NCBI GenBank assembly: GCA_038045865.1
Contig: JBBSXH010000070.1
Location: 1 to 44,246, forward strand
DNA length: 44,246 nucleotides
Reading direction: 5' to 3'
Source of the DNA: Nanobdellota archaeon
GTDB taxonomy: Archaea > Nanobdellota > Nanobdellia > Pacearchaeales > GW2011-AR1
Below, piece after piece: positions 5,434 to 37,089 of this stretch. The position numbers were made by a program, and so were the translations under genes. How positions within the stretch are numbered: the stretch's first letter is position 1; every line of letters begins with the position of its first letter. The notes under the pieces were generated by a model. It was not told the DNA's origin. It did not search any database and saw only the letters and a program-made list of their open reading frames with translations.

Positions 5434-5464
5434 AATAATTGATTTATGAATTAGACTATTTTAT

Positions 5465-5580
5465 ATTTGTTAAATCATAATCGCTTTGAATTTAATCTCT
5501 TAATCTTTTAATGTGATAAACATAGCTGTTAAAATTATATCTTATTAGAAAATATATCCTAAGTAAATTTAGGTTACATA
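5465..5580 (-). repeat. Intergenic repeat, degenerate copy D (same orientation as copy B)
   Basis: TGTTAAATCATAATCGCTTTGAATTTAATC aligns with TGTTATAATCATAATCGCGAGGTTTAATC of copy B (12-nt exact AATCATAATCGC). The distal TTAGGTTACATA aligns with AAGGTTTACACA of copy B. Confidence 0.5.
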
Positions 5581-5637
5581 GAGACCTATAATTCTAAATA
5601 CCTAAATCCTTTTAAATAAAATTTTCTCTTAAAATTT

Positions 5638-7059
5638 ATGGATTTCAAGAAGATAATCAATGATTTTTCCAAAAGAAAAATTTTAGTTGTTGGAGATGTT
5701 ATGCTGGATAGTTATATTTATGGAGATGTTGAAAGAATAAGCCCAGAAGCGCCTGTTCCTGTTGTAAGAATAACTAAAGAAGTTTATGAACTAGGAGGAG
5801 CAGCTAATGTTGCTGCAAATATTTCTTCTTTGAGAGGTAAAGCTTTTTTATTAGGTTATGTTGGAAAAGATAATTCTAAAACTATTTTGATAAACAAACT
5901 TAATGAAAAAAATGTGAAATTCAATCTTTATGATTCTTTAGAACAAACAATTCAAAAAACAAGAATAATTGGAAATGGACATCAAATAGCAAGGATTGAT
6001 AAAGAGGGCTCTAAAAAAGTTTCAGAACAAAATGAAGAAGAATTAGCCAAGAGAATAGTTTCAGAAAATCCCGAGATTATAATTGCCTCAGACTATGCAA
6101 AAGGATGTTTAACAAATAATCTTTTTTCTTTAATAAAAAAATATAATCCTACTACAAAAATAATAATTGACCCAAAACCAAAGAATAAGATAGATTATAG
6201 GGGAGCTTATTTAATTACTCCGAATCTTAAAGAGGGTAAAGAACTAACTGGCCTTGAAAACATTAATGAAATAGGAAAAGAATTACAAAAAAAATATGGT
6301 TGTAATGTTCTTTTAACTCTTGGAAAAGATGGATCAATTTTATTTGAAGGAAAAAATATAATCAGCCTACCTACTCAGGCAAAAGAAGTTTTTGATGTTA
6401 CTGGGGCAGGAGATACCTTAATTGCTACTATAGGTTTAGGATTAGGTTCAGGATTAAACTTAGAAAATTCTATTTTTTTAGCGAATCATGCTGCAGGAAT
6501 TGTTGTAGGAAAAGCAGGGACTGCTACAATATCTTCAAGTGAATTAGAGCAAGTTATTGATTCTGAAAATAAGAAAATAAAATCCTTAGATGAATTAATG
6601 GGTATCTGTGCAGATTATAAAAGAAAAGGGAAAAAAATTGCCTGGACAAATGGTTGTTTTGAAATACTTCATGCAGGACATGTAAACTATCTTAAACAAG
6701 CAAAATCAAAAGGAGATTATCTTATTGTAGGATTAAATAGTGATGATTCTGTAAGAGTTTTAAAAGGAGAAGATAAATCTATTGTTCCTCAGGAACAAAG
6801 AGCAGAAGTTTTAGCGGGATTAAACTCTGTAGATTATGTTACTATCTTTAATGAAAAAACTGTTTCAAATTGTTTGGAAGCATTAAGACCAGATGTTTAT
6901 GTAAAAGGAGGAGATTATGATATTGAAAAAATGGATCAAGACGAGAGAAAGATAATTGAAAGATATGGAGGAAATTTTGCATTTATTCCTTTTGTAAATA
7001 ATATTTCAACCTCCAAAATTATTAGGAAGATACAAGGCAAGGGGACAAATGAGAGATAA
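5638..7059 (+). CDS. hldE: Bifunctional D-beta-D-heptose 7-phosphate kinase / D-beta-D-heptose 1-phosphate adenylyltransferase (RfaE/HldE type)
   Basis: The N-terminal pfkB-type kinase domain starts with the RfaE-I signature KILVVGDVMLDSYIYGDVERISPEAPVPVV and carries the anion-hole motif DVTGAGDTLIA. The C-terminal cytidylyltransferase-like domain has WTNGCFEILHAGHVNYLKQAKSKGDYLIVGLNSDDSV (HxGH). Confidence 0.85.
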   Translation: MDFKKIINDFSKRKILVVGDVMLDSYIYGDVERISPEAPVPVVRITKEVYELGGAANVAANISSLRGKAFLLGYVGKDNSKTILINKLNEKNVKFNLYDSLEQTIQKTRIIGNGHQIARIDKEGSKKVSEQNEEELAKRIVSENPEIIIASDYAKGCLTNNLFSLIKKYNPTTKIIIDPKPKNKIDYRGAYLITPNLKEGKELTGLENINEIGKELQKKYGCNVLLTLGKDGSILFEGKNIISLPTQAKEVFDVTGAGDTLIATIGLGLGSGLNLENSIFLANHAAGIVVGKAGTATISSSELEQVIDSENKKIKSLDELMGICADYKRKGKKIAWTNGCFEILHAGHVNYLKQAKSKGDYLIVGLNSDDSVRVLKGEDKSIVPQEQRAEVLAGLNSVDYVTIFNEKTVSNCLEALRPDVYVKGGDYDIEKMDQDERKIIERYGGNFAFIPFVNNISTSKIIRKIQGKGTNER

Positions 7060-7083
7060 TACTCTTTTTAGAATACTATTTAG

Positions 7084-7190
7084 TAATGTGTAAATCTTAC
7101 CATTTTTGCAGATGATAAAGCCATAGCTTTGAAATTAATCATTTAAGATTTGGGTGATGAAAATAATTTTTGAAGATTATAAAATAATTA
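7084..7190 (+). repeat. Intergenic repeat, copy E (taken as reference orientation)
   Basis: It shares four exact 11-12-nt blocks, in the same order and similar spacing, with the reverse complement of 3595-3698. The blocks are TAATGTGTAAA, TTTGCAGATGAT, TTTGAAATTAAT and TTTAAGATTTG. Confidence 0.7.
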
Positions 7191-7358
7191 TTAATTTAAC
7201 ACACAGAGATATCTTCCAACAAAACTTCTTGCTAATTTTTCCAAACATTGTTCTTAGAATATTATCAAAAGTTAAAGTGGTTCTGTCCATCAGAAAACAC
7301 ACCAAATTTCATCTTAAGTAAATTTAAAAACTCCTTTTATCTTAATTTTTCATAAAAA

Positions 7359-7505
7359 ATGGTTAAATGGATATGTACACATTGTAATTTTAGGTTTGAA
7401 ACAAATAAACCAAACGATTGTCCTTATTGTGGAAAAAAATCTCTTGAAAAAGAACCAAATGCAGAAGAATTATTAAATGAAATTGGAGGAATTTTAGATA
7501 ATTAG
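7359..7505 (+). CDS. Small zinc-ribbon protein (48 aa; absent from the supplied ORF track)
   Basis: Hand translation gives MVKWICTHCNFRFETNKPNDCPYCGKKSLEKEPNAEELLNEIGGILDN, with CxxC...CxxC spacing typical of a rubredoxin-like zinc ribbon. It sits in an otherwise empty 600-nt gap. Confidence 0.45.
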   Translation: MVKWICTHCNFRFETNKPNDCPYCGKKSLEKEPNAEELLNEIGGILDN

Positions 7506-7520
7506 ATAAACAATTCACCA

Positions 7521-7581
7521 CAAAGCTAAATCAACTCAAACAATACAAATACTATTTAATAATATTTCAAACTAAATCGCT
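7521..7581. repeat. Paired short motifs shared with 2081-2139
   Basis: CAAAGCTAAATCAA lies at 7521-7534 and AAACTAAATCGCT at 7569-7581. These are exact 14-mer and 13-mer matches to the spacer upstream of pfdA. Confidence 0.6.
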
Positions 7582-7666
7582 TTGGCTAATGAACCCAAGC
7601 GAGTAATAGTTATAGATATTAACAACAAAAATAAAGTAAGTTAAAAGATAAACAAAAACAAATAAA

Positions 7667-10471
7667 ATGGATGAAGAAAAAATAATTCAAGAACGTGAAA
7701 AAAAATTAATTAATTTTTTAAAAAAACCAGTTGTTTGGGTAACTTTCTTTTTAATCTTAGCAATTATCTTAGGAGTTTATATTAGAAGTATGCCAATGCA
7801 AGACCATTCTAAAGGACAAATACCTACCTTATTCCAGTTTGTTACAGGACAATCATTCACAGGAACACCTGGTTTATGGGACATCACAACAAACGATTGG
7901 ACATTAGGTCCTGATTTAGATCCCTGGCTTTTCACAAGACAAGCACAGATTATTGTAGATAATGGTTCTATGCCAGCAAGAGATAATATGAGGTATGTTC
8001 CTCTGGGGTTTAATAATGCAATTGAAACAAAACTATTACCTTATATGATTGCATGGACTTATTATCTAGTTAATTTATTTGGAGATTATTCTGTTAATTT
8101 TGCAGCAGCTTTTTTCCCAGTTTTAATGTTTGCTTTAACAATTATTTCTTTCTTTTTATTCACAAGAGAAATTTTTGTTAGAAAAATAAGTGATAAAAAA
8201 GAAGATAATAAAAATAAACTAAAAGCAAATTTAATTGCATTAATTTCTACTTTTTTCATGATTGTAATACCTATATTTTTATCAAGAACTCTTGCAGGAA
8301 TTCCTGAAAAAGAATCAGCTGCTTTCTTTTTTATGTTTTTAGCATTTTATTTTTTCTTGAAAGCTTGGAAAACTGAAAAAATAAGAAATTCTGCTATTTT
8401 AGGAGGTTTAGCAGGAATATCTACTACATTAATGGGATTAATTTCAGGATTAGTAACTTATATCTTTGTTGCAATTGGTGTAGCTAGTTTTTTAGCATTT
8501 ATCTTAAATAAGGTTTCTAAAAAAGAAGCATTTGCTTATGGGTGCTGGTTAGGGCTATCTATCTTTACATTGAATTTCTTTTCTGAAAAATATAATTTGT
8601 CTGGATTTTTAACATCCACAAGCAATTTAATTAGTGTTTTTGTTTTATTTGTTATTTTAATTCATATATTATTATGGGAAACTAAAATAAACAAATATTT
8701 TGAAAATTATTTAAAAAACATACCTAAAACCATAATCTCAATTATTATGGCTATTTTAATTGGAATTATTTTAGTAAGTATATTTTTTGGGATTAACTTT
8801 ATTCCTGATAAAATCTCTGGGCTCATTGATACCTTTATAAAACCCCTTAGTGGAAGATGGTCTAGTACTGTTGCAGAGAATAAACAACCATATTTCATAG
8901 AATGGGCAGGAAGTTTTGGTCCTTATTTAAAAAATATTCCTATTTTATTCTGGTTGTTTTTTATTGGCTCTATAATCTTGTTTAAGGATATGTTAAAACC
9001 TCTGTTAAAAAAAGATAAGTGGATTTTAACAGGGCTTTATATATTGTTTTTCTTCGGGCTTGTATTTTCAAGATATGCGCCCCATCCAGCATTATTCGAT
9101 GGAGAGGGATTTATTAGCAGGATATTTTATTTTGGTTCTGCATTATTATTAATAGGCACTTTAATTTATCTTTATATAAAATATCACAAACAAGGATTAA
9201 GAAAATTTGAAGAAATTGATTTTGAATATTTATTTTTCTTTTCAATTTTTATCTTGACATTATTTACTGCAAGAAGTGCTGTAAGACTAATTATGGTTTT
9301 AGGCCCAATTTCAGTTATACTAATTGGTTATTTAATCATAAATTCTTTATTTAGTTTTAAAAATTCTAAAGAAGATTTAAATAAGACCATTTTAGGAGTG
9401 CTTATTTTGGTTATTCTTTTATTGTCTATTTTTACTTTTAATTCATATTACAAGCAAATAAAAATTGAATCCTATAGTATGGTCCCTTCTTATTACAATC
9501 AGCAATGGCAAAAAGCAATGAATTGGACTAGATTAGATACTCCAACAAATTCTGTTTTTGCTCACTGGTGGGATTATGGTTATTGGGTTCAGAGTATTGG
9601 AGATAGGGCAACTGTCTTGGATGGAGGTAATGCATATGTTTATTGGAATTATTTAATGGGCAGATTAGTTTTAACAGGCGATAATCAAAAAGACGCATTA
9701 GATTTTTTATATGCTCATAATGCGACCCATCTTTTAATAGATTCTTCAGATATTGGAAAGTATGGAGCATTTTCAAGTATAGGTAGTGATGCAAATTATG
9801 ATAGATATTCTTGGATTGGAAACTTTTTATTAGATGAAAAACAAACTCAAGAAACAAATAATCAAACTCTTTTGGTTTATACAGGAGGAATTGCATTAGA
9901 TGAAGATTTAACTATTAAAGAAAATGGAAAAGATATTTTCCTTCCTGGACAAAAAGCTGGAGTTGGAGCAATTATTATACCTGTAAAAAATGATAATAAT
10001 CAGACTCAACAATTTTTACAACCCTATGTAATAATAGTTTATCAAAACAAACAATATAAAGTTAATTTAAGATATCTTGCAAATTCAAATCAATTTGTTG
10101 ATTTTGGTTCTGGAATTGAAGCTACTGCATTTGTATTACCTGAATTAATAAATTCTGGGCAAGGATTAAGCTCGAATCCTATTGGTTCTGCAATGTTTTT
10201 GTCTCCTAGATTAATGAGAAGTATGCTAATACAAAAATATATCTTAAATGACCCCTTTAAAAAATTTCCTAATTTTAAATTAGCTCATACAGAACCCAAC
10301 CTAATAATAAATGATTTAAATGCCCAAGGAATGAATCTCCCTGATTTTATTTATTATCAAGGTATTCAAGGCCCAATAAAAATTTGGGAAATTAAATATA
10401 CTGGACAAGAAAAAATAAAGCAAGAATATTTAGACACAGACCCAACCAAGTATCTAACCTGGAAATTGTAA
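7667..10471 (+). CDS. aglB: Archaeal oligosaccharyltransferase AglB (STT3 family)
   Basis: The 934-aa protein has about 13 N-terminal TM helices followed by a soluble domain. The catalytic WWDYG motif is seen directly (AHWWDYGYWV, codons at 9566-9580, in frame with the ATG at 7667). Confidence 0.9.
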   Translation: MDEEKIIQEREKKLINFLKKPVVWVTFFLILAIILGVYIRSMPMQDHSKGQIPTLFQFVTGQSFTGTPGLWDITTNDWTLGPDLDPWLFTRQAQIIVDNGSMPARDNMRYVPLGFNNAIETKLLPYMIAWTYYLVNLFGDYSVNFAAAFFPVLMFALTIISFFLFTREIFVRKISDKKEDNKNKLKANLIALISTFFMIVIPIFLSRTLAGIPEKESAAFFFMFLAFYFFLKAWKTEKIRNSAILGGLAGISTTLMGLISGLVTYIFVAIGVASFLAFILNKVSKKEAFAYGCWLGLSIFTLNFFSEKYNLSGFLTSTSNLISVFVLFVILIHILLWETKINKYFENYLKNIPKTIISIIMAILIGIILVSIFFGINFIPDKISGLIDTFIKPLSGRWSSTVAENKQPYFIEWAGSFGPYLKNIPILFWLFFIGSIILFKDMLKPLLKKDKWILTGLYILFFFGLVFSRYAPHPALFDGEGFISRIFYFGSALLLIGTLIYLYIKYHKQGLRKFEEIDFEYLFFFSIFILTLFTARSAVRLIMVLGPISVILIGYLIINSLFSFKNSKEDLNKTILGVLILVILLLSIFTFNSYYKQIKIESYSMVPSYYNQQWQKAMNWTRLDTPTNSVFAHWWDYGYWVQSIGDRATVLDGGNAYVYWNYLMGRLVLTGDNQKDALDFLYAHNATHLLIDSSDIGKYGAFSSIGSDANYDRYSWIGNFLLDEKQTQETNNQTLLVYTGGIALDEDLTIKENGKDIFLPGQKAGVGAIIIPVKNDNNQTQQFLQPYVIIVYQNKQYKVNLRYLANSNQFVDFGSGIEATAFVLPELINSGQGLSSNPIGSAMFLSPRLMRSMLIQKYILNDPFKKFPNFKLAHTEPNLIINDLNAQGMNLPDFIYYQGIQGPIKIWEIKYTGQEKIKQEYLDTDPTKYLTWKL

Positions 10472-10553
10472 ATTAATTAAATAATCCAAAAAAGACAATT
10501 ATTCTTTAGGATTAATATGTAAGATTTAAAAGCATCAAATTTCTTTATAATAT

Positions 10554-11567
10554 ATGAATCTATTAATTTTAATTGGGCTTGCAGTAAGTTTTTTTTCAGT
10601 TTTATTTTTTTTACCTTTCTGGATTAGAAAATGTAAAGAAATAGGATATGTTTGGAATGATATGAATAAGTTTAATCATCAGAAAAATGTTGCAGGTTCT
10701 GGAGGATTAATAGTTGTTTTAAGTTTTATTTTAGGAGTTCTTTGCTATATTGCTATAAGAACATTTGTATTTTCAAATGGAGTTAATATTAATCTTCAAA
10801 TTTTTAGTTTATTAGCAGTTATTTTAATATTTGCTATCCTTGGATTTATTGATGATTTTTTGGGTTGGGAAAGTGGGGGGTTATCAATAAAGTTCAGATT
10901 ATTTTTAGCATTTTTTGCATCAATACCATTAGTAGTAATTAATGCAGGAAATTCTTCAATGAATTTCCCATTTTTTGGATTAGTTGAGTTTGGATTAATT
11001 TACCCATTAATAATTGTCCCAATAGGTATTGCTGGTGCTGCAACAACATATAATTTTTTAGCAGGGTTTAATGGACTGGAAACAGGGCAAGGTGCGATTA
11101 TATTAAGTTTTCTCAGTATTCTTGCTTATATCACTGGAACTCCTTGGCTTGCTTTAGTTGGATTAATCATGGTAACAAGCCTTATCGCATTTTATTTTTA
11201 TAATAAATGTCCTGCAAAAGCATTTCCAGGAGATATACTTACTTATTCAATAGGTTCATTAATTGCGATTATCGCTATTTTAGGTAATCTTGAAAAAATC
11301 GCAGTATTTATTTTTATTCCTTATATTCTAGAAGTATGTTTAAAATTAAGAGGAAGATTAAAAAAACATTCATTCGCTAAACCGAATAAAGATAATAGTC
11401 TAGAAATGCCTTATGATAAAATATATGGAATGACTCATTTATCATTATTTATTCTTAAAAAATTCAAGAAAAAAGTATATGAAAAAGATGTTGTTTATTT
11501 TATATTTGCAGTTCAAATAATCATCTGCTTGCTAGCATTATTAATCTTTAGAGGAAGTTTATTATGA
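10554..11567 (+). CDS. Polyprenyl-phosphate GlcNAc-1-phosphate transferase (MraY/WecA/AglH family)
   Basis: This polytopic membrane protein carries GFIDDFLGW and YNFLAGFNGLETGQ, which are hallmarks of the family. It lies directly downstream of aglB. Confidence 0.8.
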   Translation: MNLLILIGLAVSFFSVLFFLPFWIRKCKEIGYVWNDMNKFNHQKNVAGSGGLIVVLSFILGVLCYIAIRTFVFSNGVNINLQIFSLLAVILIFAILGFIDDFLGWESGGLSIKFRLFLAFFASIPLVVINAGNSSMNFPFFGLVEFGLIYPLIIVPIGIAGAATTYNFLAGFNGLETGQGAIILSFLSILAYITGTPWLALVGLIMVTSLIAFYFYNKCPAKAFPGDILTYSIGSLIAIIAILGNLEKIAVFIFIPYILEVCLKLRGRLKKHSFAKPNKDNSLEMPYDKIYGMTHLSLFILKKFKKKVYEKDVVYFIFAVQIIICLLALLIFRGSLL

Positions 11568-11974
11568 TTAGAAGTTTTATTAAAAATCATTTTTGGAAAT
11601 TTGTGATGTTTTGTTTTGTTGGGCTAACCGCTACTTTGATTCATATAGGGGTCTTTAATCTTTTTAGATTTTTTTTAAGTTTTAGTTTTATTATAGCAGT
11701 ATTATCTGGGGTGTTTGTTTCAATAATCTATAATTTTTTAATGAATAGGACTTTTACATTTAAAGCAAAAGATAATGCAATTAAAAAACAATTACCCCGT
11801 TTTCTTATAATTTACACGGTTTCAATAACTGTTAATATAACTACTGCCCTATTAGTAAATTTAATATTAGGGGCAGGGGTATTAAAAGAAAATATTGCTA
11901 CAATAAGTGGAATAATTTTAAGTATCCCATTTAGTTTTTTTGGTTCCTTGCTATGGGCTTTTAAAAAAGACTGA
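11564..11974 (+). CDS. GtrA-family membrane protein (putative lipid-linked sugar translocation)
   Basis: The 136-aa ORF has four TM helices, FCFVGLTATLIHIGVFNLF at the N-terminus and NRTFTFK after TM2. Its start overlaps the upstream stop as ATGA. Confidence 0.7.
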   Translation: MIRSFIKNHFWKFVMFCFVGLTATLIHIGVFNLFRFFLSFSFIIAVLSGVFVSIIYNFLMNRTFTFKAKDNAIKKQLPRFLIIYTVSITVNITTALLVNLILGAGVLKENIATISGIILSIPFSFFGSLLWAFKKD

Positions 11975-11992
11975 TTTAAAAAGACTGATTTA
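11965..11992 (+). repeat. Perfect 14-nt tandem duplication spanning the GtrA stop codon
   Basis: AAAAGACTGATTTA occurs at 11965-11978 and again at 11979-11992. The first copy contains the TGA stop of 11564-11974. Confidence 0.8.
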
Positions 11993-12066
11993 ATTATATC
12001 TTTCTTGAAACAATATGTATTTAAGAATAAAATTAACTTTTTAAAGGACAATAAGTGCAAGATTAT

Positions 12067-13485: not shown

Positions 13486-13505
13486 AAAATATTCTTTGGA
13501 TAAAC

Positions 13506-14222
13506 TTAAGGTTTTCTGCATACCCCAAATATACTTATTCCTGGAGGAGTTTTAATTTTTTTTTTAAACCAAAAATTTTCTGTTTTAAGGATATTGTACA
13601 AAACAGAATCTATAATAGGATTCGTTATGGGATTTTCTACTTTGGGCTTAGAATATTTTTTTATTAATCTACTAATCACTAAAGGTAAAAATAAAGTGAA
13701 ATTCCAGTAGTTAAAGTATGGATCTTTAAATTCTTTGAAAAGACTTTTCAAATCTTTTTTAGAATATCTTCTTTTATGTTCTACAGCTTTATCATGAGAG
13801 CTGTATATAAATTGAAAAGCAGGTACTGAAAAAATTAGAAAACCATTTTTTTTCAGAACTCTGTATACTTCCGAGATAGCTTTTTTATCATCTTTAATAT
13901 GCTCAAAAACATCAAATGCTACAACTAACTCAAAAAATTCATCAGGATAACTTATATTACAAGCATCACAAATTTTTCTCTCTTTATATAGGTCTTTAGG
14001 TATTAACTTTAATGCTTTTTTTTCTATATCTGTAACATAAACTTCTCCAAATTTATTTAAAGAATATAATTCTTCACCTGTTCCAGCACCCAAACTTAAA
14101 ATTTTTAATTTTTTTGAATGATTTTCAATATATTTTTGCAATAATATTTCTATTAAATCTACTTTGGCTCTAAACCAAAAATTAGTTTTAGAATTTCCTG
14201 CAAGATAATCTTTATAATCCAT
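13506..14222 (-). CDS. Class I SAM-dependent methyltransferase
   Basis: Motif I is ILSLGAGTGEE, followed by an acidic loop (VYVTDIE) and the post-I region VVAFDVFEHI. Confidence 0.7.
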   Translation of the reverse strand: MDYKDYLAGNSKTNFWFRAKVDLIEILLQKYIENHSKKLKILSLGAGTGEELYSLNKFGEVYVTDIEKKALKLIPKDLYKERKICDACNISYPDEFFELVVAFDVFEHIKDDKKAISEVYRVLKKNGFLIFSVPAFQFIYSSHDKAVEHKRRYSKKDLKSLFKEFKDPYFNYWNFTLFLPLVISRLIKKYSKPKVENPITNPIIDSVLYNILKTENFWFKKKIKTPPGISIFGVCRKP

Positions 14223-14925
14223 AGAAAATAGTCTTAAATTTATATTTAAATAACTTTAAAATAGATACAAACCCATCTTTAATAGTTAGTTTAGAACCTT
14301 CTGAATCTTTCCAATTTATAGGGTACTCATAAATCTTAAACCCATTTTTTTTGCAAAGATATAATAAATTCACATCAAATATCCATCCAGATTCAAGATA
14401 ATTTTTAACTAAAAATTTAGCAATATTTTTTTTGAATAACTTTGCTCCACACTGAGTATCATAATATTTTAAATTAAATAATAGTTTAACAAATAAATTA
14501 AAAAAAAAACTGGATAAGTCTTGCATCTTTCTTCTTTTTGGATTAATTATCGCTCCTTTTATTTTTCGAGAACCAACTATTCCTGCATAATTATCTTTGT
14601 ATTTATATAACTTATAGAAATTTTCTGGATTAGTACTATTATCTGCATCACTAAACCCAATATACTCTCCTTTAGCTAATTCAAATCCAGTCATTACAGC
14701 TCTGCCCTTTCCAGAATAATTAGGGATATTGAAAACCCTTATCTGCTTCTTATTTTTAGCAAATTTTTGAGTAATTTCTAAAGTATTATCTTTGCAATTA
14801 TTTGGTATAACAATTATTTCAAATTCATTTCGAAATTTATCATTAAAAAAATTATAATACTCTTCTAAGGTAGGAATAATCCTTTTTTCTTCATTATACG
14901 CAGGAATTATTATTGATAGTTTCAT
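14212..14925 (-). CDS. GT2 glycosyltransferase, polyprenyl/dolichyl-phosphate hexose synthase-like (GtrB/Dpm1 type)
   Basis: The ORF begins MKLSIIIPAYNEEKRI and carries the DxD-like GFSDADNS. It is short (237 aa) and soluble, as in Dpm1/GtrB-type enzymes. Confidence 0.75.
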   Translation of the reverse strand: MKLSIIIPAYNEEKRIIPTLEEYYNFFNDKFRNEFEIIVIPNNCKDNTLEITQKFAKNKKQIRVFNIPNYSGKGRAVMTGFELAKGEYIGFSDADNSTNPENFYKLYKYKDNYAGIVGSRKIKGAIINPKRRKMQDLSSFFFNLFVKLLFNLKYYDTQCGAKLFKKNIAKFLVKNYLESGWIFDVNLLYLCKKNGFKIYEYPINWKDSEGSKLTIKDGFVSILKLFKYKFKTIFYGL

Positions 14926-16424
14926 CTTAAATTATATACTATCAAACTAGGTTGTTTTTTAGTCAAATCTGTAAAATAAATCTGTGCTATTGTTAGATTT
15001 TCCTCTTGGGGAAAAGAATACATCCAGTTGTCATGTCCTTCAAATATAGAAACCACATAAAATTTAAAATTTTTGTCAGAAGAAACTAAGGACTTTAATT
15101 CTTCTTTATCTGATGGGATCATTAAAGTTTTTCTTTCTGAGTAATATTCTATTTGAGGCCAACTTTTGCTAAGGATTTTATCAGAAAACTTAGAGTTTTG
15201 TTTTAACCATAGCCCTGCTTCTTTTACAGGATAATAAGAACTTAATTTATTTTTTATAAGAGAATCTCCAGAATGAATTTGAAAATATGAAAGATAACCC
15301 AATAAAAATATTATAATTAAGATTACTATAATTTTTCCAATTTTTCCTTTTAAAAAATGATATAGAGTTAGAATAAAATAACCTGAAATTATAAAAATTG
15401 CAGGAAATGAATTTAAAATATATCTATCTTCATTAACATGAAGAGAAAAACTTATTAGGAGAATTGGAAATATTAATATTAATATTAAATAAAGATATTT
15501 TTTAATTTCAGTATTATCTTCTTTAAACAACAAATCAAAACCAATGAACAATTTATACATAGCAAATAATCCTAATACAAAAATAATTAATCCAATCCAA
15601 GAAAGATATACTGGAAACAAAAAAATGTAGTTCATTAAAGTAGATATCCCTCCTGAGAGGATATTCTCTTTAGGAGCATTCCATTTTCCAGCTTCTAAGA
15701 TAACAAACTTACCAAATTTAATATATCCCCAGATTATATATGGGGAGATTGTTAAGAAAAATAGAATAACTGAAACCCATACCTCTTTTAATTTAAATAA
15801 TTTTAATCTTTCAGTGATTAATGCATAAATCACTATGGCAAATAATAATGCTACAGTAGGTATTCTAAACATTGTTCCGATGCCGATTAAAACTGTTCCA
15901 ACATATAATGAGATTACAGACTTTTTTATGAAATATCTATAAAAGAAAAATGCAGAAAATGTATAAAATGCAAGAGAAACTAAATCAACAAGAAGCCTAT
16001 ATGTAAAAAAAAGATTTAAGTAAAAAACAGACATGAATAATGCTGAAACTATTCCAATCTTCCTATCAAAAATTTCTTTTCCTAGCAAATAAATTCCAAT
16101 AATTGTGGACATAGAAATCAAAAGAATAAATATTCTTGGTAAAAATTCTGAAACAGAGATTCTTAAGAATAGAGAACTAATGAATGAGAATAAAATCGGT
16201 CTAACTGTTAAAAACGTATAATCCCAACCAAATGCCCAGGCTTTAGCCATACTCATATATTCAGCTTCATCCCACCATAATGCCTGATTATAAGTTAAAA
16301 AAAAATAGTATATCCTGATGATTATTGCAAAAATTAAAACGCCTAAAAAAGCAAGGTTATAGGGATTCTTTATCCATTTAATTATTTTCTCTTTCCTATA
16401 TTCTATAATTTTTGACCCTTCCAT
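14922..16424 (-). CDS. GT-C fold glycosyltransferase (PMT/ArnT-like, family 39/83 type)
   Basis: This 500-aa polytopic protein has an extracytoplasmic first-loop acidic motif (ALWWDEAEYMSMA) and a C-terminal soluble domain. It is translationally coupled (ATGA) to the GT2 downstream. Confidence 0.65.
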   Translation of the reverse strand: MEGSKIIEYRKEKIIKWIKNPYNLAFLGVLIFAIIIRIYYFFLTYNQALWWDEAEYMSMAKAWAFGWDYTFLTVRPILFSFISSLFLRISVSEFLPRIFILLISMSTIIGIYLLGKEIFDRKIGIVSALFMSVFYLNLFFTYRLLVDLVSLAFYTFSAFFFYRYFIKKSVISLYVGTVLIGIGTMFRIPTVALLFAIVIYALITERLKLFKLKEVWVSVILFFLTISPYIIWGYIKFGKFVILEAGKWNAPKENILSGGISTLMNYIFLFPVYLSWIGLIIFVLGLFAMYKLFIGFDLLFKEDNTEIKKYLYLILILIFPILLISFSLHVNEDRYILNSFPAIFIISGYFILTLYHFLKGKIGKIIVILIIIFLLGYLSYFQIHSGDSLIKNKLSSYYPVKEAGLWLKQNSKFSDKILSKSWPQIEYYSERKTLMIPSDKEELKSLVSSDKNFKFYVVSIFEGHDNWMYSFPQEENLTIAQIYFTDLTKKQPSLIVYNLR

Positions 16425-16458: not shown

Positions 16459-17445
16459 TTATTCCAAACTTAAAAGAGTTTTTAATACTTCCTCCACAGA
16501 AATACTATTAACAAGTTCTTCACTATATTGGTCTGATTTTTCTGGAAAAAAATTATAAAGCAAAGGAGAAATTATTTTTGTTAATAACCCATAATCTTCT
16601 ACTTCATTTGGAGAAGTGCAAAAAAATAAAGCAATTGTTGGCTTTTTTAATGCTAAAGAAACATGAAGAGCAAAACTATCAGAACAAATCATTTTAGAAC
16701 ATAAATTTACTAATGCAAAAAATTCATTGTCTGAATTATAAGGATTATTTTGAATAACCTTTATGCCTTGTTTTTTTAAATCTTCTGAAATTTTTTTATG
16801 TTTTTCAATTTCATTTGGACCTCCAAAAAGCAGTATCTCATAATTTTTTTGTTTTGCCTGCTTTATGAATTCTTTTATTTTTTCTTCACTCCAGGATTTA
16901 GAAGGCCATCTTGGAGAAGAGCCTATATGAATACCAATTAATTTTTCTGTATTAATATTATTTTTTTTTATAAACTCCTTTGCATAATCCTTATCTTTTT
17001 CTGTTAAATAAATAGGGTGATGGTGCTTATTATAAGTTAATTCTGCTACTTCAAACATCATTTGCTGATAAGTTTTTCTATTTGTTTTTTTTAATTCATC
17101 GTCAAATAAGGTATTTAAATAATATTCAGCAGGCAGATTAAATGCATTTGCATAACCATCCTTATAATAAAAGCCATATTTTTTAACTGCTATTATTTGA
17201 TTTGCTAATTTAGTTGCTTCTTCTTCTATATCAAAATTATACAAGATATCAAAAGTTTCGTTTATTTCACAAGGCAAGGTAATTATCTTTTTTATATACG
17301 GGCTTGTTTCTAAAATTTGTCTAGAAGATTGTTTAGTTATCCAACATATTTCTGAATTGGGATATTTTTCTTTTAATGCTATTAAAACAGGCAAAGTTCT
17401 GATTACATCTCCCTTTGCACCTAACTTGATTATAAGCATTTTCAT
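16459..17445 (-). CDS. GT9 family glycosyltransferase (heptosyltransferase-like)
   Basis: The N-terminus MKMLIIKLGAKGDVIRTLPVLIALKEKYPNSEICWITKQ is the classical RfaC/RfaF opening. The C-terminal region CSKMICSDSFALHVSLALKKPTIALF matches the GT9 donor-binding region. Confidence 0.75.
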   Translation of the reverse strand: MKMLIIKLGAKGDVIRTLPVLIALKEKYPNSEICWITKQSSRQILETSPYIKKIITLPCEINETFDILYNFDIEEEATKLANQIIAVKKYGFYYKDGYANAFNLPAEYYLNTLFDDELKKTNRKTYQQMMFEVAELTYNKHHHPIYLTEKDKDYAKEFIKKNNINTEKLIGIHIGSSPRWPSKSWSEEKIKEFIKQAKQKNYEILLFGGPNEIEKHKKISEDLKKQGIKVIQNNPYNSDNEFFALVNLCSKMICSDSFALHVSLALKKPTIALFFCTSPNEVEDYGLLTKIISPLLYNFFPEKSDQYSEELVNSISVEEVLKTLLSLE

Positions 17446-17481: not shown

Positions 17482-17913
17482 ATGAAAATAAGATATATAA
17501 TGAAAGCATATATTGCAGGCCCTTTATGCATAAAAGAAGAAAGAATATTTTTAGAAAGAATTGATAAAATATGCAAAAAATTAAATGTAACTACTTTTTT
17601 GCCTCATAGAGATTGTGGATTATGGAAAAATTTAAAAGATACTAAAAGAATTGCTAAAGGGGATTTAAAGGGATTTGAAAATTGTGATTTTTTGATTGCA
17701 AATTTAAATGGATTTAATATAGGTGCTGGAACTGCTTGGGAAATAGGATATGCTTATGCAAAAAAAATTCCGATTATAGCCCTTAAAACAGATAAAAATC
17801 CAAAAAAAGTTATTGAAGATATAAGTGCTATAATCTTTGGAACAACAAAAATAATTACAAGTTTAGGAAATCTTGAAGAAGAAATAAAAAAATTAATCAA
17901 GAGGTTACATTAA
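17482..17913 (+). CDS. Nucleoside 2-deoxyribosyltransferase-like protein
   Basis: KAYIAGPL at the N-terminus and GTAWEIGYAYAKKIPIIAL are typical of the NDT-like Rossmann family. The true start may be the internal Met at 17500. Confidence 0.5.
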   Translation: MKIRYIMKAYIAGPLCIKEERIFLERIDKICKKLNVTTFLPHRDCGLWKNLKDTKRIAKGDLKGFENCDFLIANLNGFNIGAGTAWEIGYAYAKKIPIIALKTDKNPKKVIEDISAIIFGTTKIITSLGNLEEEIKKLIKRLH

Positions 17914-17939
17914 ATTAATCAGTTTAATAAATAATAAAA

Positions 17940-19534: not shown

Positions 19535-19536
19535 TT

Positions 19537-19731: not shown

Positions 19732-19753
19732 AGATTATCAAGGATAAAGTAAA

Positions 19754-25051: not shown

Positions 25052-26581
25052 TCAGATTATTTTCCTTTTAATTGCTCTTAAAATCATTAAGTCATTGTTA
25101 TCTAAACTCTTAGTTATGATTATCAAAAGAAAGTAAAATAAGAAAAATAAAATGCCTTGAAGAATTAGAGTAGTTGTATTTATGGGGATAAATTGTTTCA
25201 CAAAAATTAATAAAATGGTCGGAATAAGTGAAACAAAAAAGATTGTCAGCATCTTTCTCTTTAATGGAATAATTAAAACACTCCTTTTTGCCTGAATTAG
25301 AGATATAAAACTCCAAATAATATATGTTATCATTGTAGAAAATGCAGCTCCGCTAATGCCATATTTGGGCACTAATAAAATATTAAGGATTAGATTTATT
25401 ATAGAAGAAATCAAAATATTAAATAAAACTGTTTTTGATTTGCCAGCCATTGAAAGAAGATTAGCTGATATAATAAATATAGAATAAAAAAAAGTCCCTA
25501 TTGAAAGAAATCTAAGAGACCATGCTGCAGAAAGATATTCTGACCCAAAAAAAAGATTTATAATTGCTCCTGGAAATAAAATCATTATAATAAGTAAGGG
25601 TAAATTCAAAAGAAAAATCCATTTTGCTACTTGTTTACTGATATCTTTTATTAAACTAATTTTATTTCTTGAAAATTCTTTTGTTATCATTGGAAAGAAA
25701 AGCTGAATAAATAATGAAGGAACTATAATCAACAAAAAAGCCAGAGGTACTGCTGCATTGTAAATTCCTACCTCTATTACATTTTTAAAATAACCAATTG
25801 AAAAGGAATCTATCCATGAGAATACAAACGAAATTACACTCAAAAACATTAATGGCCATGAATATGAAAAAAGATCTCGAGTTATCTTGGATTTTAACTC
25901 TTTTTTTAAGGTATATTTTTTGGCTATCTCCGATAACTGAGATTTTAGAATATAATAGGATACTCCCAACATAAAAAATATTCCCATGATATATGAAAAA
26001 ACTATGGCTTCAGTTTTCAATCCTATTGCAATTAATATCAAGATTGATCCTAATTTAATTGTGATATCTAAAACATTTCTTATAAATGAATACCAGTTTA
26101 TTTTTTCAAATGCCTGAAGAATTGAAAGAAATGTGGATGCAAAAATAGAGAAAGGAATTGCTATGCTAAACCATTGAAGATAAATTATCAAATGAGGATC
26201 ATGAAATATGTTAATAGAAATAAATTTAGACAATGAAAATAAGAGAATTCCTGAAAAAACTCCTGAAAAAAATAAAAAGGCTAGAGTTATCTTGAATATG
26301 TGCCTTATTTTACTTATTTCTTTTTTCCCTCGGTAAATAGAGATGTATCTCACTATTCCTTCTACTAATCCGAAAGAAAAAACAGCAACAAACCACCCTA
26401 CAATCATTACTGCTAAAGAAAATAACCCATACTCTTCTGGGCCAAATTGTCTCGCAATTATTATTCTATAAATATAAGTTAAAACTTTAGAAAATAAAAT
26501 AAATATTAAGACTATAAGAGACGATTTTGCAATAAGCTTCAAAGAGCTATTTAGTTTTTCTTTTTCTTTTTCAATCATCAC
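25052..26581 (-). CDS. Wzx-type oligosaccharide flippase (MOP/polysaccharide biosynthesis protein family)
   Basis: The 509-aa protein has about 14 TM helices and the typical N-terminal pattern (LIAKSSLIVLIFILFSKVLTYIYRIIIARQFGPEEYGLF). Confidence 0.75.
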   Translation of the reverse strand: MMIEKEKEKLNSSLKLIAKSSLIVLIFILFSKVLTYIYRIIIARQFGPEEYGLFSLAVMIVGWFVAVFSFGLVEGIVRYISIYRGKKEISKIRHIFKITLAFLFFSGVFSGILLFSLSKFISINIFHDPHLIIYLQWFSIAIPFSIFASTFLSILQAFEKINWYSFIRNVLDITIKLGSILILIAIGLKTEAIVFSYIMGIFFMLGVSYYILKSQLSEIAKKYTLKKELKSKITRDLFSYSWPLMFLSVISFVFSWIDSFSIGYFKNVIEVGIYNAAVPLAFLLIIVPSLFIQLFFPMITKEFSRNKISLIKDISKQVAKWIFLLNLPLLIIMILFPGAIINLFFGSEYLSAAWSLRFLSIGTFFYSIFIISANLLSMAGKSKTVLFNILISSIINLILNILLVPKYGISGAAFSTMITYIIWSFISLIQAKRSVLIIPLKRKMLTIFFVSLIPTILLIFVKQFIPINTTTLILQGILFFLFYFLLIIITKSLDNNDLMILRAIKRKII

Positions 26582-30089: not shown

Positions 30090-30113
30090 TACGCTTTTAA
30101 AAAGGTAAGATTT

Positions 30114-30129
30114 AAAAGTTTATTGGTGA
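30114..30129 (+). promoter_or_regulatory. Upstream motif AAAAGTTTATTGGTGA, 10 nt before the HD-domain gene ATG
   Basis: It has the same AAAGTTTATT..GGTGA arrangement as the region upstream of queC. Confidence 0.35.
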
Positions 30130-35282: not shown

Positions 35283-36155
35283 TTGAAAAACGAAAAAATA
35301 TTTATTTTTGGAGCCTCTGGATTTATTGGAGGATATTTATTTAATCATTTAAAAAATAAATGTAAAAAAGTAACTGGAACTTATAACCAAAATAAGAAAC
35401 CGGAATTGATTTTTTTTGATACTGCTAATTCTTCTATTGAAGAACTTCCTTTGGATAATGTTAAGTATGGAGTTATATGTTCTACTTTAGCTAATATAGA
35501 CTCTTGTATAAAAGATTTAAATTATTCTAACAAGGTTAATGTTACTGGACTAGAAAAAGTTATTACAAAACTTGTGAAAAAAGATATAATCCCGGTTTTT
35601 ATCTCTTCTGGAGCAGTCTTTGATGGTTTAACAGGAGGATACAAAGAAAATGATTTGAGAAATCCCAAAAATATCTATGGAATACAAAAAAAACAAATGG
35701 AAGATTTTATGATATCTAATCTTAAAGATTATCTTATATTAAGGATAGGAAAAGTATTTGGGATTAACAAAAGAGACAATGGAAAAATATTTATGGATTG
35801 GATTGAAAAATACAAAAGAAATGAAGAGATTAAATGTGCTTATGATGAAGAACTATCATTAACTTCTATTGAAGATGCAGTTAAATGTATAGAGGTTTTA
35901 TTAGATCAAAACAAAAGAGGGATTTTTCATATAGACTCTGGAATTCATAAGAGTAGATTCGACTTTGCAAAAGATTTCTTTGATTATCTAAAAATTAAAG
36001 ATGCAAATTTAATCAGATGTTCCTTAGACGATTTTAATTTTTCAGATAAAAGAGCAAAAAAACCTTATTTGGATTCTTCAAAAGTTATTAAGGAAATAGG
36101 ATTTTCATTTACTTCTTTAGACAGATATTATGAGATTATTAAAAACCAGATTTAA
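35283..36155 (+). CDS. NAD(P)-dependent SDR, RmlD-like (dTDP-4-dehydrorhamnose-reductase family) reductase
   Basis: IFIFGASGFIGGYL provides the GxxGxxG motif and NIYGIQKK provides YxxxK. The size and layout are those of RmlD. The ORF starts at a TTG. Confidence 0.7.
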   Translation: MKNEKIFIFGASGFIGGYLFNHLKNKCKKVTGTYNQNKKPELIFFDTANSSIEELPLDNVKYGVICSTLANIDSCIKDLNYSNKVNVTGLEKVITKLVKKDIIPVFISSGAVFDGLTGGYKENDLRNPKNIYGIQKKQMEDFMISNLKDYLILRIGKVFGINKRDNGKIFMDWIEKYKRNEEIKCAYDEELSLTSIEDAVKCIEVLLDQNKRGIFHIDSGIHKSRFDFAKDFFDYLKIKDANLIRCSLDDFNFSDKRAKKPYLDSSKVIKEIGFSFTSLDRYYEIIKNQI

Positions 36156-37089
36156 TTTCCTTTGCAATCATTTCAGGAAAAATATTATTTATACAAGATT
36201 GGTCATATTTTAAGCATTTAGAATTAAAACACGGAAGACAATCATACTCTCCTCTAGGTAAGATAGTCTTGCCACGATTATAAAAATATATTTCTTTATG
36301 GGATGTTGAACTAAACAAACCAATAACATTTTTTTTAAGTGCAAGTGCAAGATGCAACCCTAAACTATCATTTGTCACCAATGTTTTGCAAGAATTTATC
36401 CAGTCTATATATCCTTCTAAATTTTTTGTTACTTTGTCTCCTTGATTTTCTTGTCTTGAAACAGAATAATGGTCTTTAAGCAAATCTTCTAATTCATCCC
36501 AATTTTCCATAGACCATTTTTTAGAAGGCCATTTACTTCCTATTTGACTGTTAAAACCAATATCATAAACTTCTTGAGTTTTAGGCTTGTAACCTAAAAT
36601 ATACTCTTCACCATTAAATTTTTCTCCAACCATTTCAAATAAAAGATCTTGAAATGTTCGCTCATTACCCTTTTTATATTTTGGATTAAAACTTACTGCG
36701 AGAACTTCATAAGCATTATCTAAAGCTTCTGCTTCACCAGTCTGAGTGTTAAATGTAAATCCATATCTGCTTCTTCTTGCACGGATTTTATCAGACAAAG
36801 CACAAATTCCAGGGACTTTTTCTAAGTTTATAATTTTATCAAATTCTTCAGATTCCAATTGCAGAGTAGTTAACAAATCAAAAGTTAATAGCCTACTAAT
36901 ATAAGAATTATTATTTAAAAGGGGTTTAGCTTCTTCAGAAGTTACCCAAGTAACTTGATGATTATTATATTTATGAAGTAAAGAAGTGGTTCTTAACACA
37001 TCCCCTAGACTAACTATCCGGCTATTTTGATCTCCATCCAAAATTTCAGTATATCCTGTCTTTATAATTAAAATTTTCTGTTTTTCCAT
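36139..37089 (-). CDS. GT9 family glycosyltransferase (second heptosyltransferase-like paralogue)
   Basis: KILIIKTGYTEIL...SLGDVLRTTSLLHKYNNHQVTWVTSEEAKPLL and the C-terminal CKTLVTNDSLGLHLALALKKNVIGLF mirror 16459-17445. Confidence 0.65.
   Translation of the reverse strand: MEKQKILIIKTGYTEILDGDQNSRIVSLGDVLRTTSLLHKYNNHQVTWVTSEEAKPLLNNNSYISRLLTFDLLTTLQLESEEFDKIINLEKVPGICALSDKIRARRSRYGFTFNTQTGEAEALDNAYEVLAVSFNPKYKKGNERTFQDLLFEMVGEKFNGEEYILGYKPKTQEVYDIGFNSQIGSKWPSKKWSMENWDELEDLLKDHYSVSRQENQGDKVTKNLEGYIDWINSCKTLVTNDSLGLHLALALKKNVIGLFSSTSHKEIYFYNRGKTILPRGEYDCLPCFNSKCLKYDQSCINNIFPEMIAKEIKSGF

What the first reader, a model, noticed from the sequence alone, without database searches (positions are those of the whole stretch)
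5638..10471. Bacterial-type bifunctional HldE (ADP-heptose synthesis) encoded just upstream of the archaeal oligosaccharyltransferase
ORF 5638-7059 fuses an RfaE-I pfkB kinase domain (EAPVPVV, GAGD) to an RfaE-II adenylyltransferase domain (HAGH). This fusion is the hallmark of the Gram-negative ADP-L-glycero-beta-D-manno-heptose pathway used for the LPS inner core. Here it sits in an archaeal context about 600 nt upstream of aglB, separated only by a mini zinc-ribbon ORF and repeat-bearing spacers. GmhA, GmhB and HldD are not in the window. This suggests horizontal acquisition of an activated-heptose supply line for an archaeal glycan.
Basis: partly seen in the sequence, partly recalled or inferred. 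Interest (0 to 1): 0.65.

Follow-up and report, generated by a model that had tools for sequence, protein, structure and literature searches.

The report
HldE heptose-activating gene in DPANN archaeon
A tiny (DPANN) archaeon carries an intact copy of the two-domain enzyme that bacteria use to make ADP-heptose, placed in a conserved surface-glycosylation gene island with heptosyltransferase-like genes; such genes are common in this archaeal group, so it is an ordinary family member and not a fresh import from bacteria.

Summary
ORF 5638-7059 (+) is a full-length kinase plus nucleotidyltransferase fusion of the HldE type. All catalytic motifs are intact, and it lies 607 nt upstream of an AglB gene that carries the WWDYG motif. 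GmhA, GmhB and HldD are absent from the window and from 5.9 kb beyond it.

The gene is not a recent bacterial import. Its GC3 and codon usage are typical for the window. Its 120 best relatives (41-95% identity) include every named DPANN sequence. On an NJ tree they separate from 78 sampled bacterial HldEs with 88.5% bootstrap. One bacterial lineage nests inside the DPANN radiation, so the direction of transfer is unresolved. NDP-heptose enzymes in archaea were already reported by Tang et al. 2024.

The "heptose supply for an archaeal glycan" idea is strengthened. In Woesearchaeota and Pacearchaeota relatives the order is GT9 | hldE | PMT_2 within the same island. A Woesearchaeota-labelled MAG has gmhA-hldD-gmhB-hldE followed by three GT9 genes. 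Direct adjacency to aglB is a local rearrangement.

Verdict: a new member of a known kind, of modest interest.

The parts
5610..5619 (+). TATA-like box TTTTAAATAA, centred about 24 nt upstream of the hldE ATG. Putative archaeal promoter giving a leaderless or near-leaderless mRNA.
   Evidence: Read directly from the sequence. A similar box (CTCCTTTTATCTTAA) precedes the Zn-ribbon ORF (repeat D3). Function is inferred, not tested.
5638..7059 (+). [quoted passage not shown]
   Evidence: HldE NF008454 scores 452 bits (E=2e-135) over its full length. PDB matches are HldA 4e84 (E=7e-55) and HldC 5x9q (E=1e-32). All motifs are intact.
5674..6528 (+). Domain I: PfkB-family sugar-phosphate kinase (residues 13-297), with GDVMLD, SPEAPVPVV, GGAANV, SDYAKG, TPNLKE and DVTGAGD (catalytic Asp259).
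   Evidence: (rfaE_dom_I 320.9 bits, cut-off 345).
6643..7026 (+). Domain II: cytidylyltransferase-fold nucleotidyltransferase (residues 336-463), with HAGH at 345-348 and FVNNISTS at 452-459. Position 5 of the latter is Ile, so it is not the STTR5 arginine.
   Evidence: (rfaE_dom_II 182.3 bits, cut-off 181.5).
7359..7505 (+). 48-aa CxxC...CxxC zinc-ribbon ORF. It is not conserved in related loci, and there is no evidence that it belongs to the pathway.
   Evidence: only sub-threshold hits; called as a gene in the NCBI MAG; no tblastn hits in other loci.
7667..10471 (+). AglB/STT3 oligosaccharyltransferase (934 aa) with WWDYG at residue 634.
   Evidence: It is 52% identical to the L004 Woesearchaeota AglB.
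10554..11567 (+). GT4-family (MraY/WecA/AglH-like) polyprenyl-phosphate sugar-1-phosphate transferase. Likely initiates the lipid-linked glycan.
   Evidence: PF00953, E=3e-28. It is 63% identical to its L004 counterpart.
11564..11974 (+). GtrA-family small membrane protein.
   Evidence: PF04138, E=2e-17. Syntenic in L004.
14212..14925 (-). GT2 (DPM1/GtrB-like) glycosyltransferase, overlapping the PMT_2 gene.
   Evidence: It is 56% identical to its L004 counterpart.
14922..16424 (-). PMT_2 (GT-C) membrane glycosyltransferase. In relatives it is the immediate neighbour of hldE.
   Evidence: the L004 and L086 orthologues flank hldE.
16459..17445 (-). GT9 (heptosyltransferase-family) glycosyltransferase 'a', the predicted consumer of ADP-heptose.
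   Evidence: (PF01075, 64.2 bits against 22), (PDB 3tov GT9, E=5e-14; WaaF 1psw and WaaC 6dfe, ~4-5e-8). Its orthologues sit next to hldE in L086 (57% identity, fused to NUDIX) and L004 (35% identity, fused to GT2).
25052..26581 (-). Wzx/MOP-type polysaccharide flippase.
   Evidence: PF01943, E=5e-28.
36139..37089 (-). GT9-family glycosyltransferase 'b', a paralogue of GT9a (27% identity, E~1e-25).
   Evidence: There is no PDB hit at E<0.01.

Best explanation
ORF 5638-7059 encodes a functional member of the HldE family that belongs to a DPANN-wide lineage. Domain I phosphorylates D-glycero-D-manno-heptose 7-phosphate at C1. [quoted passage not shown] The cytoplasmic GT9 enzymes of the same island (16459-17445 and 36139-37089) then use this donor to add heptose to a polyprenyl/dolichyl-phosphate-linked oligosaccharide. 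That oligosaccharide is started by the GT4-family transferase (10554-11567), flipped (25052-26581), and most likely attached to surface proteins by AglB (7667-10471). The gene is resident in this lineage and was not recently imported. In the window's lineage it has moved from its usual GT9 | hldE | PMT_2 slot to the aglB end of the same island. Shown here: the domain architecture, the intact motifs, clade membership, synteny, and GT9 linkage. Inferred: the substrates, ATP preference, the lipid-linked acceptor, and AglB as the final transferase.
For: The ORF aligns full-length to HldE. It shows strong similarity to solved HldA and HldC structures. Every catalytic motif is conserved. The FVNNISTS motif lacks the STTR5 arginine that marks CTP/UTP-promiscuous enzymes. 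Two GT9 genes lie in the window. hldE is immediately flanked by GT9 and PMT_2 orthologues in Pacearchaeota L086 and Woesearchaeota L004. L004 keeps the same island, including AglB, GT4 and GtrA, with aglB 4.5 kb from hldE. Same-clade relatives carry GmhB fused to HldE (P0101; GmhB equivalog 190.9 bits against a cut-off of 178). Another has GmhA adjacent (L087). A further one has a full gmhA-hldD-gmhB-hldE cassette followed by three GT9 genes (L090). GmhA homologues are named from Woesearchaeota, Nanoarchaeales and Micrarchaeota. Archaeal enzymes of this pathway have been shown to make ADP-heptose (Tang et al. 2024, as summarised in PMC11461863 and PMC11573728). An archaeal N-glycan containing a heptose is known from Thermoplasma acidophilum (PMC11407970). 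Composition is native to the window.
Against: No gmhA or gmhB lies in the window or on the 45.7-kb NCBI contig, and the rest of the genome could not be searched. The full-length and domain-I scores fall below NCBIfam's equivalog cut-offs (452 against 521; 320.9 against 345). The GT9 proteins are far from the characterised LPS heptosyltransferases (71 bits against a cut-off of 185), so their donor sugar is not established. Direct hldE-aglB adjacency is not conserved. The closest relatives with long contigs (L084, L085) place hldE beside a T2SSE-type ATPase and unknown proteins instead. Nothing here shows that the heptose ends up on an AglB substrate and not on another glycoconjugate.
Confidence: 0.72

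Rival explanations
1. Recent horizontal acquisition: hldE was picked up by this genome or its close ancestors from a Gram-negative bacterium and inserted next to aglB.
For: The HldE fusion is overwhelmingly a bacterial gene. The gene occupies an unusual position compared with its relatives.
Against: GC3 and codon usage are typical for the window. The nearest relatives are DPANN sequences at 45-95% identity, while the sampled bacteria reach only 38-45%. The bacteria-versus-DPANN split has 88.5% bootstrap. The island, including hldE, is syntenic with Woesearchaeota and Pacearchaeota genomes.
Confidence: 0.05
2. ADP-heptose (or a polyprenyl-phosphate-heptose derived from it) feeds a glycoconjugate that does not depend on AglB. 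One example is a GT9-built glycolipid or lipoglycan. Another is an outside-the-membrane modification by the PMT_2 GT-C enzyme working with the GT2 and GtrA proteins, in the manner of a GtrA/GtrB/GtrC system. On this view the proximity to aglB is incidental.
For: The conserved neighbours of hldE are GT9 and PMT_2, not aglB. In the window GT2 and PMT_2 overlap as an operon, and GtrA is nearby. L090 has hldE and three GT9 genes with no aglB within the stretch seen.
Against: AglB, the GT4-family initiating transferase and GtrA are part of the same conserved island in both the window and L004. No GT-C enzyme is known to use a heptose donor (statement from general knowledge, not tested here).
Confidence: 0.2
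3. The enzyme has drifted to a different substrate or nucleotide, for example another sugar phosphate or CDP/UDP-heptose, and is an HldE only by homology.
For: The full-length and domain-I scores are below the equivalog cut-offs. The C-terminal motif is FVNNISTS, not the canonical (F/L)XXGxSTT. No gmhA or gmhB was seen on this contig. STTR5 is not strictly required for NTP promiscuity (PMC11461863).
Against: All kinase and nucleotidyltransferase motifs are conserved, including the SPEAPVPVV segment shared with the bacterial HldE sequences compared here. Same-clade members are fused or adjacent to bona fide GmhB, GmhA and HldD. Domain II passes its equivalog cut-off.
Confidence: 0.08

Closest known systems
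Enterobacterial HldE (RfaE), the bifunctional heptose 7-phosphate kinase / heptose 1-phosphate adenylyltransferase of LPS inner-core synthesis
   Same: Same two-domain order and length (473 aa against about 477). The alignment runs end to end. All catalytic motifs are shared. Identity to Klebsiella and Pantoea HldE is about 40%.
   Different: The host is an archaeon with no LPS. The score is below the NCBIfam equivalog cut-off (452 against 521). The C-terminal motif is FVNNISTS where enterobacteria have FEDGCSTT. gmhA, gmhB and hldD are not linked. The neighbours are AglB, a GT4-family transferase and PMT_2 in place of waa genes.
Burkholderia HldA (PDB 4e84) and HldC (PDB 5x9q), the separate kinase and nucleotidyltransferase
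   Same: They are the best solved-structure matches for the two domains (E=7e-55 and 1e-32).
   Different: They are separate proteins in Burkholderia. HldC carries the STTR5 arginine (FEHDRSTT) linked to CTP/UTP promiscuity, whereas the window protein has Ile at that position.
Archaeal NDP-heptose biosynthetic enzymes reported by Tang et al. 2024 (Science 385:678), for example Methanococcus maripaludis S2
   Same: They are archaeal homologues of the same pathway and were shown to make ADP-heptose. The didomain kinase/nucleotidyltransferase type is one of their three enzyme classes (PMC11461863 and PMC11573728).
   Different: I could not read the primary paper, so I do not know whether it covered DPANN sequences or their gene neighbourhoods. 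Its authors state that the reason archaea make manno-heptose is unknown. The GT9/PMT_2/AglB island linkage found here speaks to that question.
Woesearchaeota-labelled cassette gmhA-hldD-gmhB-hldE followed by three GT9 genes (L090, GCA_038884715.1)
   Same: Its HldE is of the same DPANN type; its nearest relative is P0092 at 57% identity. It has low GC (28.7%) and GT9 genes directly downstream.
   Different: It carries the complete pathway in one operon, including HldD, so its product would be the L-glycero form. The window has only hldE and two divergent GT9 genes (21-24% identical to those of L090).
Thermoplasma acidophilum N-linked glycan containing a heptose
   Same: It is a precedent for heptose in an archaeal N-glycan (PMC11407970).
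   Different: It is a different phylum, and its biosynthetic genes were not compared here.

Membership tests
HldE (bifunctional heptose 7-P kinase / heptose 1-P adenylyltransferase) | Full-length match to the curated HldE equivalog model (NF008454) at or above its cut-off | tested here: not met
   452 bits against a cut-off of 521, although the alignment covers residues 5-467 of the protein and 3-473 of 475 model positions. L090 and P0063 of the same clade also fall below it (479 and 460 bits), so the model appears tuned to proteobacterial sequences.
HldE | N-terminal rfaE domain I (PfkB-type heptose 7-phosphate kinase; TIGR02198) | tested here: inconclusive
   E=8e-96 and 320.9 bits against a cut-off of 345. 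The PDB match to HldA 4e84 has E=7e-55.
HldE | C-terminal rfaE domain II (heptose 1-phosphate adenylyltransferase; TIGR02199) | tested here: met
   182.3 bits against a cut-off of 181.5. The PDB match to HldC 5x9q has E=1e-32.
HldE | Catalytic and binding motifs: GD(V/I)MLD, SPEAPVP, GGAANV, TPNxxE, GAGD with catalytic Asp, HxGH and a C-terminal S-T-T/S | tested here: met
   All are present at positions 19, 35, 53, 194, 256-259, 345-348 and 457-459 in the alignment with 199 homologues.
HldE | Pathway partners GmhA (isomerase) and GmhB (phosphatase) in the same genome | not testable with these tools
   They are absent from the window and from the 45.7-kb NCBI contig. The other contigs of MAG GCA_964365455.1 could not be searched. 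They are present next to or fused with same-clade HldEs elsewhere.
HldE | [quoted passage not shown] | not testable with these tools
   This requires a biochemical assay.
STTR5-type promiscuous heptose nucleotidyltransferases | Arginine at position 5 of (F/L)XXGRSTT | tested here: not met
   The window has FVNNISTS, with Ile at position 5. Only 5 of 119 clade members have Arg there.
AglB/STT3 oligosaccharyltransferase (neighbour, 7667-10471) | STT3 N-terminal membrane domain, the core domain and the WWDYG motif | tested here: met
   PF02516 scores 36.8 against 24.5, and PF21436 scores 23.5 against 23. WWDYG is at residue 634. The subfamily model TIGR04154 is below its cut-off (77 against 450).
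GT9 glycosyltransferases (16459-17445 and 36139-37089) | Pfam PF01075 above its gathering score | tested here: met
   64.2 and 50.9 bits against 22. GT9a matches PDB GT9 and WaaF/WaaC structures.
LPS heptosyltransferases I/II/III (WaaC/WaaF/WaaQ) | Equivalog models TIGR02193, TIGR02195 and TIGR02201 at or above their cut-offs | tested here: not met
   The best scores are 71.1 against 185.3 (GT9a) and 45.1 against 134.6 (GT9b). These proteins belong to the GT9 family but are not LPS heptosyltransferase orthologues.

The most novel reading that the evidence does not exclude
Woesearchaeota/Pacearchaeota-type DPANN archaea use a resident ADP-heptose pathway and GT9 enzymes to build a heptose-containing oligosaccharide on a dolichol carrier, reminiscent of the LPS inner core. 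AglB, possibly together with a PMT_2 GT-C enzyme, then puts it on surface proteins. This would give a physiological answer to why archaea make manno-heptose. It would also imply that the DPANN lineage of hldE has been exchanged with bacteria in both directions.
Probability: 0.35. Interest if true: 0.55.

Novelty: new member of a known kind. Interest (0 to 1): 0.33.

Why it matters
Tang et al. (2024) showed that archaea can make NDP-heptoses. Their follow-up commentary says the reason is unknown and suggests looking at gene neighbourhoods (PMC11573728). This window and its relatives show that, in one large DPANN lineage, hldE is embedded in a conserved surface-glycosylation island. It is repeatedly adjacent to GT9 heptosyltransferase-like genes, sometimes fused to NUDIX or GT2 domains, and to a GT-C enzyme, with AglB in the same island. 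That yields a concrete, testable hypothesis: heptosylated lipid-linked glycans on DPANN cell surfaces. Such surfaces are thought to mediate attachment to host cells. It does not change what is known about the enzyme family itself.

Tried and rejected
1. I looked for GmhA (SIS), GmhB (HAD) and HldD in every ORF of 90 aa or more in the window, and in the 5.9 kb beyond its end. None was found. The two RmlD-like SDRs and the extra 282-aa SDR score only 26-32 bits on the HldD model, whose cut-off is 274.6.

2. I tested whether the WbuC-family cupin at 39486-40127 resembles the cupin fused to HldE in P0063. It does not (best E=0.031 over 18 residues), so I dropped the idea of a cupin isomerase in the window.

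It was useful as a bacterial sample but is not an unbiased census.

4. I tried to name the bacterial lineage behind L087 and several unnamed hits through cluster look-ups. No organism names came back.

5. I tried to extend the window upstream through its first ORF. That protein is not on record.

6. The primary Tang et al. paper is not held, so I relied on two open commentaries.

7. The Rfam and tRNA scans of the window found nothing.

8. The sigma-70 promoter and intrinsic-terminator scans were at background level, and they do not apply to archaea in any case.

9. The spacer repeats are only marginally above chance. I did not pursue them.

10. I considered that the contig might be bacterial or mis-binned. 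I rejected this because AglB with WWDYG, prefoldin, an EMC3/TMCO1-like insertase and an aIF-2B-family gene lie on the same contig, and they are syntenic with a Woesearchaeota genome.

Full report
**Observation.** The window has about 26% GC throughout. ORF 5638-7059 (+) encodes 473 aa. Pfam places a PfkB kinase domain at residues 13-297 and a cytidylyltransferase-like domain at 336-463. The NCBIfam HldE model aligns over essentially the whole protein (E=2e-135, 452 bits). That score is below the curated cut-off of 521. Domain I scores 320.9 against 345, and domain II scores 182.3 against 181.5.

The best solved-structure matches are Burkholderia HldA (4e84, E=7e-55) for residues 10-303 and HldC (5x9q, E=1e-32) for residues 333-468. 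In an alignment with 199 homologues every catalytic motif is present: GDVMLD, SPEAPVPVV, GGAANV, SDYAKG, TPNLKE, DVTGAGD, HAGH and KGGDY.

The stop codon lies 607 nt upstream of a 934-aa STT3/AglB gene with WWDYG at residue 634. Between them is a 48-aa CxxC...CxxC ORF with only sub-threshold family hits. It has no counterpart in related loci. The "repeat-bearing spacers" amount to a 9-mer, ATMGCTTTG, found 4 times against 0.84 expected. Three copies lie in the spacers around these genes. This is marginal.

The host is archaeal. AglB, prefoldin, an EMC3/TMCO1-like insertase and an aIF-2B-family gene share the contig.

The window is one large glycosylation island. It contains two GT9 (heptosyltransferase-family) genes at 16459-17445(-) and 36139-37089(-). 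It also holds a GT4-family initiating transferase, GtrA, several GT2 and GT1 genes, a PMT_2 GT-C enzyme and a Wzx-type flippase. GT9a matches solved GT9 structures, including WaaF and WaaC. The two GT9 proteins are paralogues (27% identity). Both score far below the LPS heptosyltransferase equivalog cut-offs. No GmhA, GmhB or HldD is present in the window or in the 5.9 kb beyond its end on the matching NCBI contig, GCA_964365455.1.

**Relatives and phylogeny.** The 120 best database hits are 41-95% identical. Every hit that carries an organism name is DPANN: Nanoarchaeota, Nanoarchaeia, Pacearchaeota or "archaeon". It returned one Woesearchaeota genome at 51% identity and 79 bacterial genomes at 38-45%.

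I built a neighbour-joining tree of 200 sequences over 450 columns. It has a split between 78 bacterial sequences plus three unnamed hits on one side and 119 sequences on the other. The second group includes the window protein and all named DPANN sequences. Bootstrap support for the split is 88.5%.

The picture is not purely archaeal. The P0035 group (11 clusters; monophyly 100%) sits on a 45%-GC contig with NusA, IF-2, RbfA and TruB, which is a bacterial context. This group nests inside the DPANN radiation as sister to the window's subclade, with 73-78% support. The tree is unrooted NJ with short internal branches. It shows that the window gene belongs to a large DPANN-type lineage, and that domain-crossing transfers happened. 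It does not show the direction of those transfers.

The gene's GC3 (13.9% against a window mean of 16.3%) and its codon usage (rank 20 of 40) are unremarkable. A recent bacterial import is therefore not supported.

**Gene neighbourhoods.** L004 (Woesearchaeota) is syntenic with the window across EMC3, prefoldin, aIF-2B, SpoIIM, AglB, GT4, GtrA, a methyltransferase, GT2 and PMT_2. Protein identities are 39-63% for all of these except the EMC3-like protein, which matches at 26%. In L004, however, hldE lies between PMT_2 and a 634-aa protein that is a GT9-GT2 fusion. Its GT9 part is 35% identical to the window's GT9a (E=5e-49).

In L086 (Pacearchaeota) the order is GT1, B12-radical SAM, QueC, GT2, nucleoside deoxyribosyltransferase, a GT9-NUDIX fusion, hldE, PMT_2. 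This is the same block as window 14.9-23.2 kb, with hldE again between GT9 and PMT_2. The recurring core is therefore GT9 | hldE | PMT_2. In the window's lineage GT9 and PMT_2 are adjacent, and hldE has moved in inverted orientation to the SpoIIM/AglB junction of the same island.

Two closer relatives (L084, L085; 59-63% identity) have hldE in a different setting. There it sits beside a T2SSE-type ATPase and unknown proteins. The linkage is therefore frequent but not universal.

**Pathway completeness in the clade.** P0101 is an HldE-GmhB fusion whose GmhB part passes its equivalog cut-off. In L087 a GmhA gene that passes TIGR00441 lies directly downstream of hldE, and a GT1-GT9 fusion lies upstream. 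Using that GmhA as a probe found named homologues in Woesearchaeota, Nanoarchaeales, Micrarchaeota and Methanocaldococcus.

One of these is L090, a Woesearchaeota-labelled MAG with 28.7% GC. It carries gmhA, hldD (415.9 bits against a cut-off of 274.6), gmhB (177.4 against 178), hldE (both domains above their cut-offs), three GT9 genes and a GT2 gene in a row. Its HldE is closest to basal members of the DPANN-type clade. I did not independently verify that this contig is archaeal.

**Mechanism.** The most likely account is the canonical one. Heptose 7-phosphate is phosphorylated by domain I. A GmhB encoded elsewhere removes the 7-phosphate. Domain II adenylylates heptose 1-phosphate. The GT9 enzymes then transfer heptose to a lipid-linked oligosaccharide on the cytoplasmic face of the membrane. 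AglB is the probable final transferase.

The specificity motif is FVNNISTS. It lacks the arginine of (F/L)XXGRSTT that marks CTP/UTP-promiscuous enzymes, so ATP is the expected nucleotide. The commentary notes that the arginine is not strictly required. No HldD was seen, so the product may remain the D-glycero form.

The main rival is that the heptose goes to a glycoconjugate independent of AglB, through GT9 or through the GT2/GtrA/PMT_2 trio. The conserved neighbours of hldE are GT9 and PMT_2, not aglB, which favours that rival to some degree.

**Comparison with what is known.** Functional NDP-heptose enzymes in archaea, including the didomain type, were reported by Tang et al. 2024. I read only two open commentaries on that work, because the primary paper is not held. 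A heptose occurs in the Thermoplasma acidophilum N-glycan. Full-text searches found no report linking archaeal hldE to GT9/AglB islands or to DPANN.

The gene is a new member of a known family. The neighbourhood evidence is a modest addition that bears on an openly stated question: why archaea make manno-heptose.

**Verdict.** The "bacterial-type, horizontally acquired here" part is not supported. Interest is modest (0.33).

Noticed in passing
window 12055-13485, 20492-22027, 26589-27542, 28036-29094, 33163-34125, 34178-35263, 37395-38456, 40076-41530, 42958-44181: Nine radical-SAM genes lie in one 44-kb glycosylation island: three with B12-binding domains, four with SPASM domains and two plain. 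They are interleaved with glycosyltransferases, two RmlD-like SDRs, a WbuC cupin and methyltransferases. This density suggests extensive radical chemistry on the sugars, such as C-methylation or epimerisation. L086 has a similar set of B12-radical-SAM paralogues.
   Followed up: partly
L086:8586-9956 and L004:8073-9977; window 27596-27994: The GT9 gene next to hldE is fused to a NUDIX hydrolase in a Pacearchaeota genome (MCK9596947.1) and to a GT2 domain in a Woesearchaeota genome. The window has a free-standing NUDIX gene. A NUDIX domain on a heptosyltransferase could act on ADP-heptose or ADP.
   Followed up: partly
L087 (GCA_964346815.1, contig CAYFWF010000068.1), hldE at 10001-11446: A 45%-GC bacterial contig (NusA, IF-2, RbfA, TruB) carries a DPANN-type hldE with gmhA downstream and an 863-aa GT1-GT9 fusion upstream. 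Its 11-member clade nests inside the DPANN radiation with 73-78% NJ bootstrap, which suggests exchange between DPANN archaea and bacteria. The bacterial lineage could not be named.
   Followed up: partly
L090 (GCA_038884715.1) 6391-13505: A Woesearchaeota-labelled MAG has a complete gmhA-hldD-gmhB-hldE cassette followed by three GT9 genes and a GT2 gene. This looks like an LPS-inner-core-type heptose module at 28.7% GC. I did not independently verify that the contig is archaeal.
   Followed up: partly
P0063, P0078, P0082, P0094, P0102; L088:10001-11737: Some clade members carry an N-terminal cupin domain fused to HldE. In L088 this gene sits between gyrB and gyrA in an archaeal ribosomal-protein context. 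The cupin is unrelated to the window's WbuC cupin, and its role is unknown.
   Followed up: partly
P0090, P0101: These are HldE-GmhB triple-domain fusions (676 aa). The GmhB part passes its NCBIfam equivalog cut-off.
   Followed up: yes
window 29091-32223: A short split transketolase-like pair (245 and 184 aa; 196 bits against a cut-off of 488) lies beside a weak APH-like kinase (29091-30089) and a weak HD-domain ORF (30140-30934). In a sugar cluster this could be a ThDP-dependent two-carbon branching enzyme and not a pentose-phosphate transketolase. It should therefore not be assumed to supply sedoheptulose 7-phosphate.
   Followed up: no
window 17482-20475: A nucleoside 2-deoxyribosyltransferase-like gene, a Vut_1/YhhQ-type transporter and QueC are embedded in the glycosylation island. 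QueC and the deoxyribosyltransferase keep the same positions in the Pacearchaeota locus L086.
   Followed up: no
window 5455-5488, 7072-7151, 7548-7584: The intergenic spacers flanking hldE, the Zn-ribbon ORF and aglB share ACTATTT[AT][AG]TAAT ... AT[CA]GCTTTG. The 9-mer occurs 4 times in the window against 0.84 expected. This may be a local regulatory site, but the enrichment is marginal.
   Followed up: partly
L084 1-771, 5954-9796, 16420-19281: In the contig of the 63%-identical relative, three neighbouring genes (a DEAD helicase, a T2SSE-type ATPase and RtcB) all carry inteins with LAGLIDADG domains.
   Followed up: no
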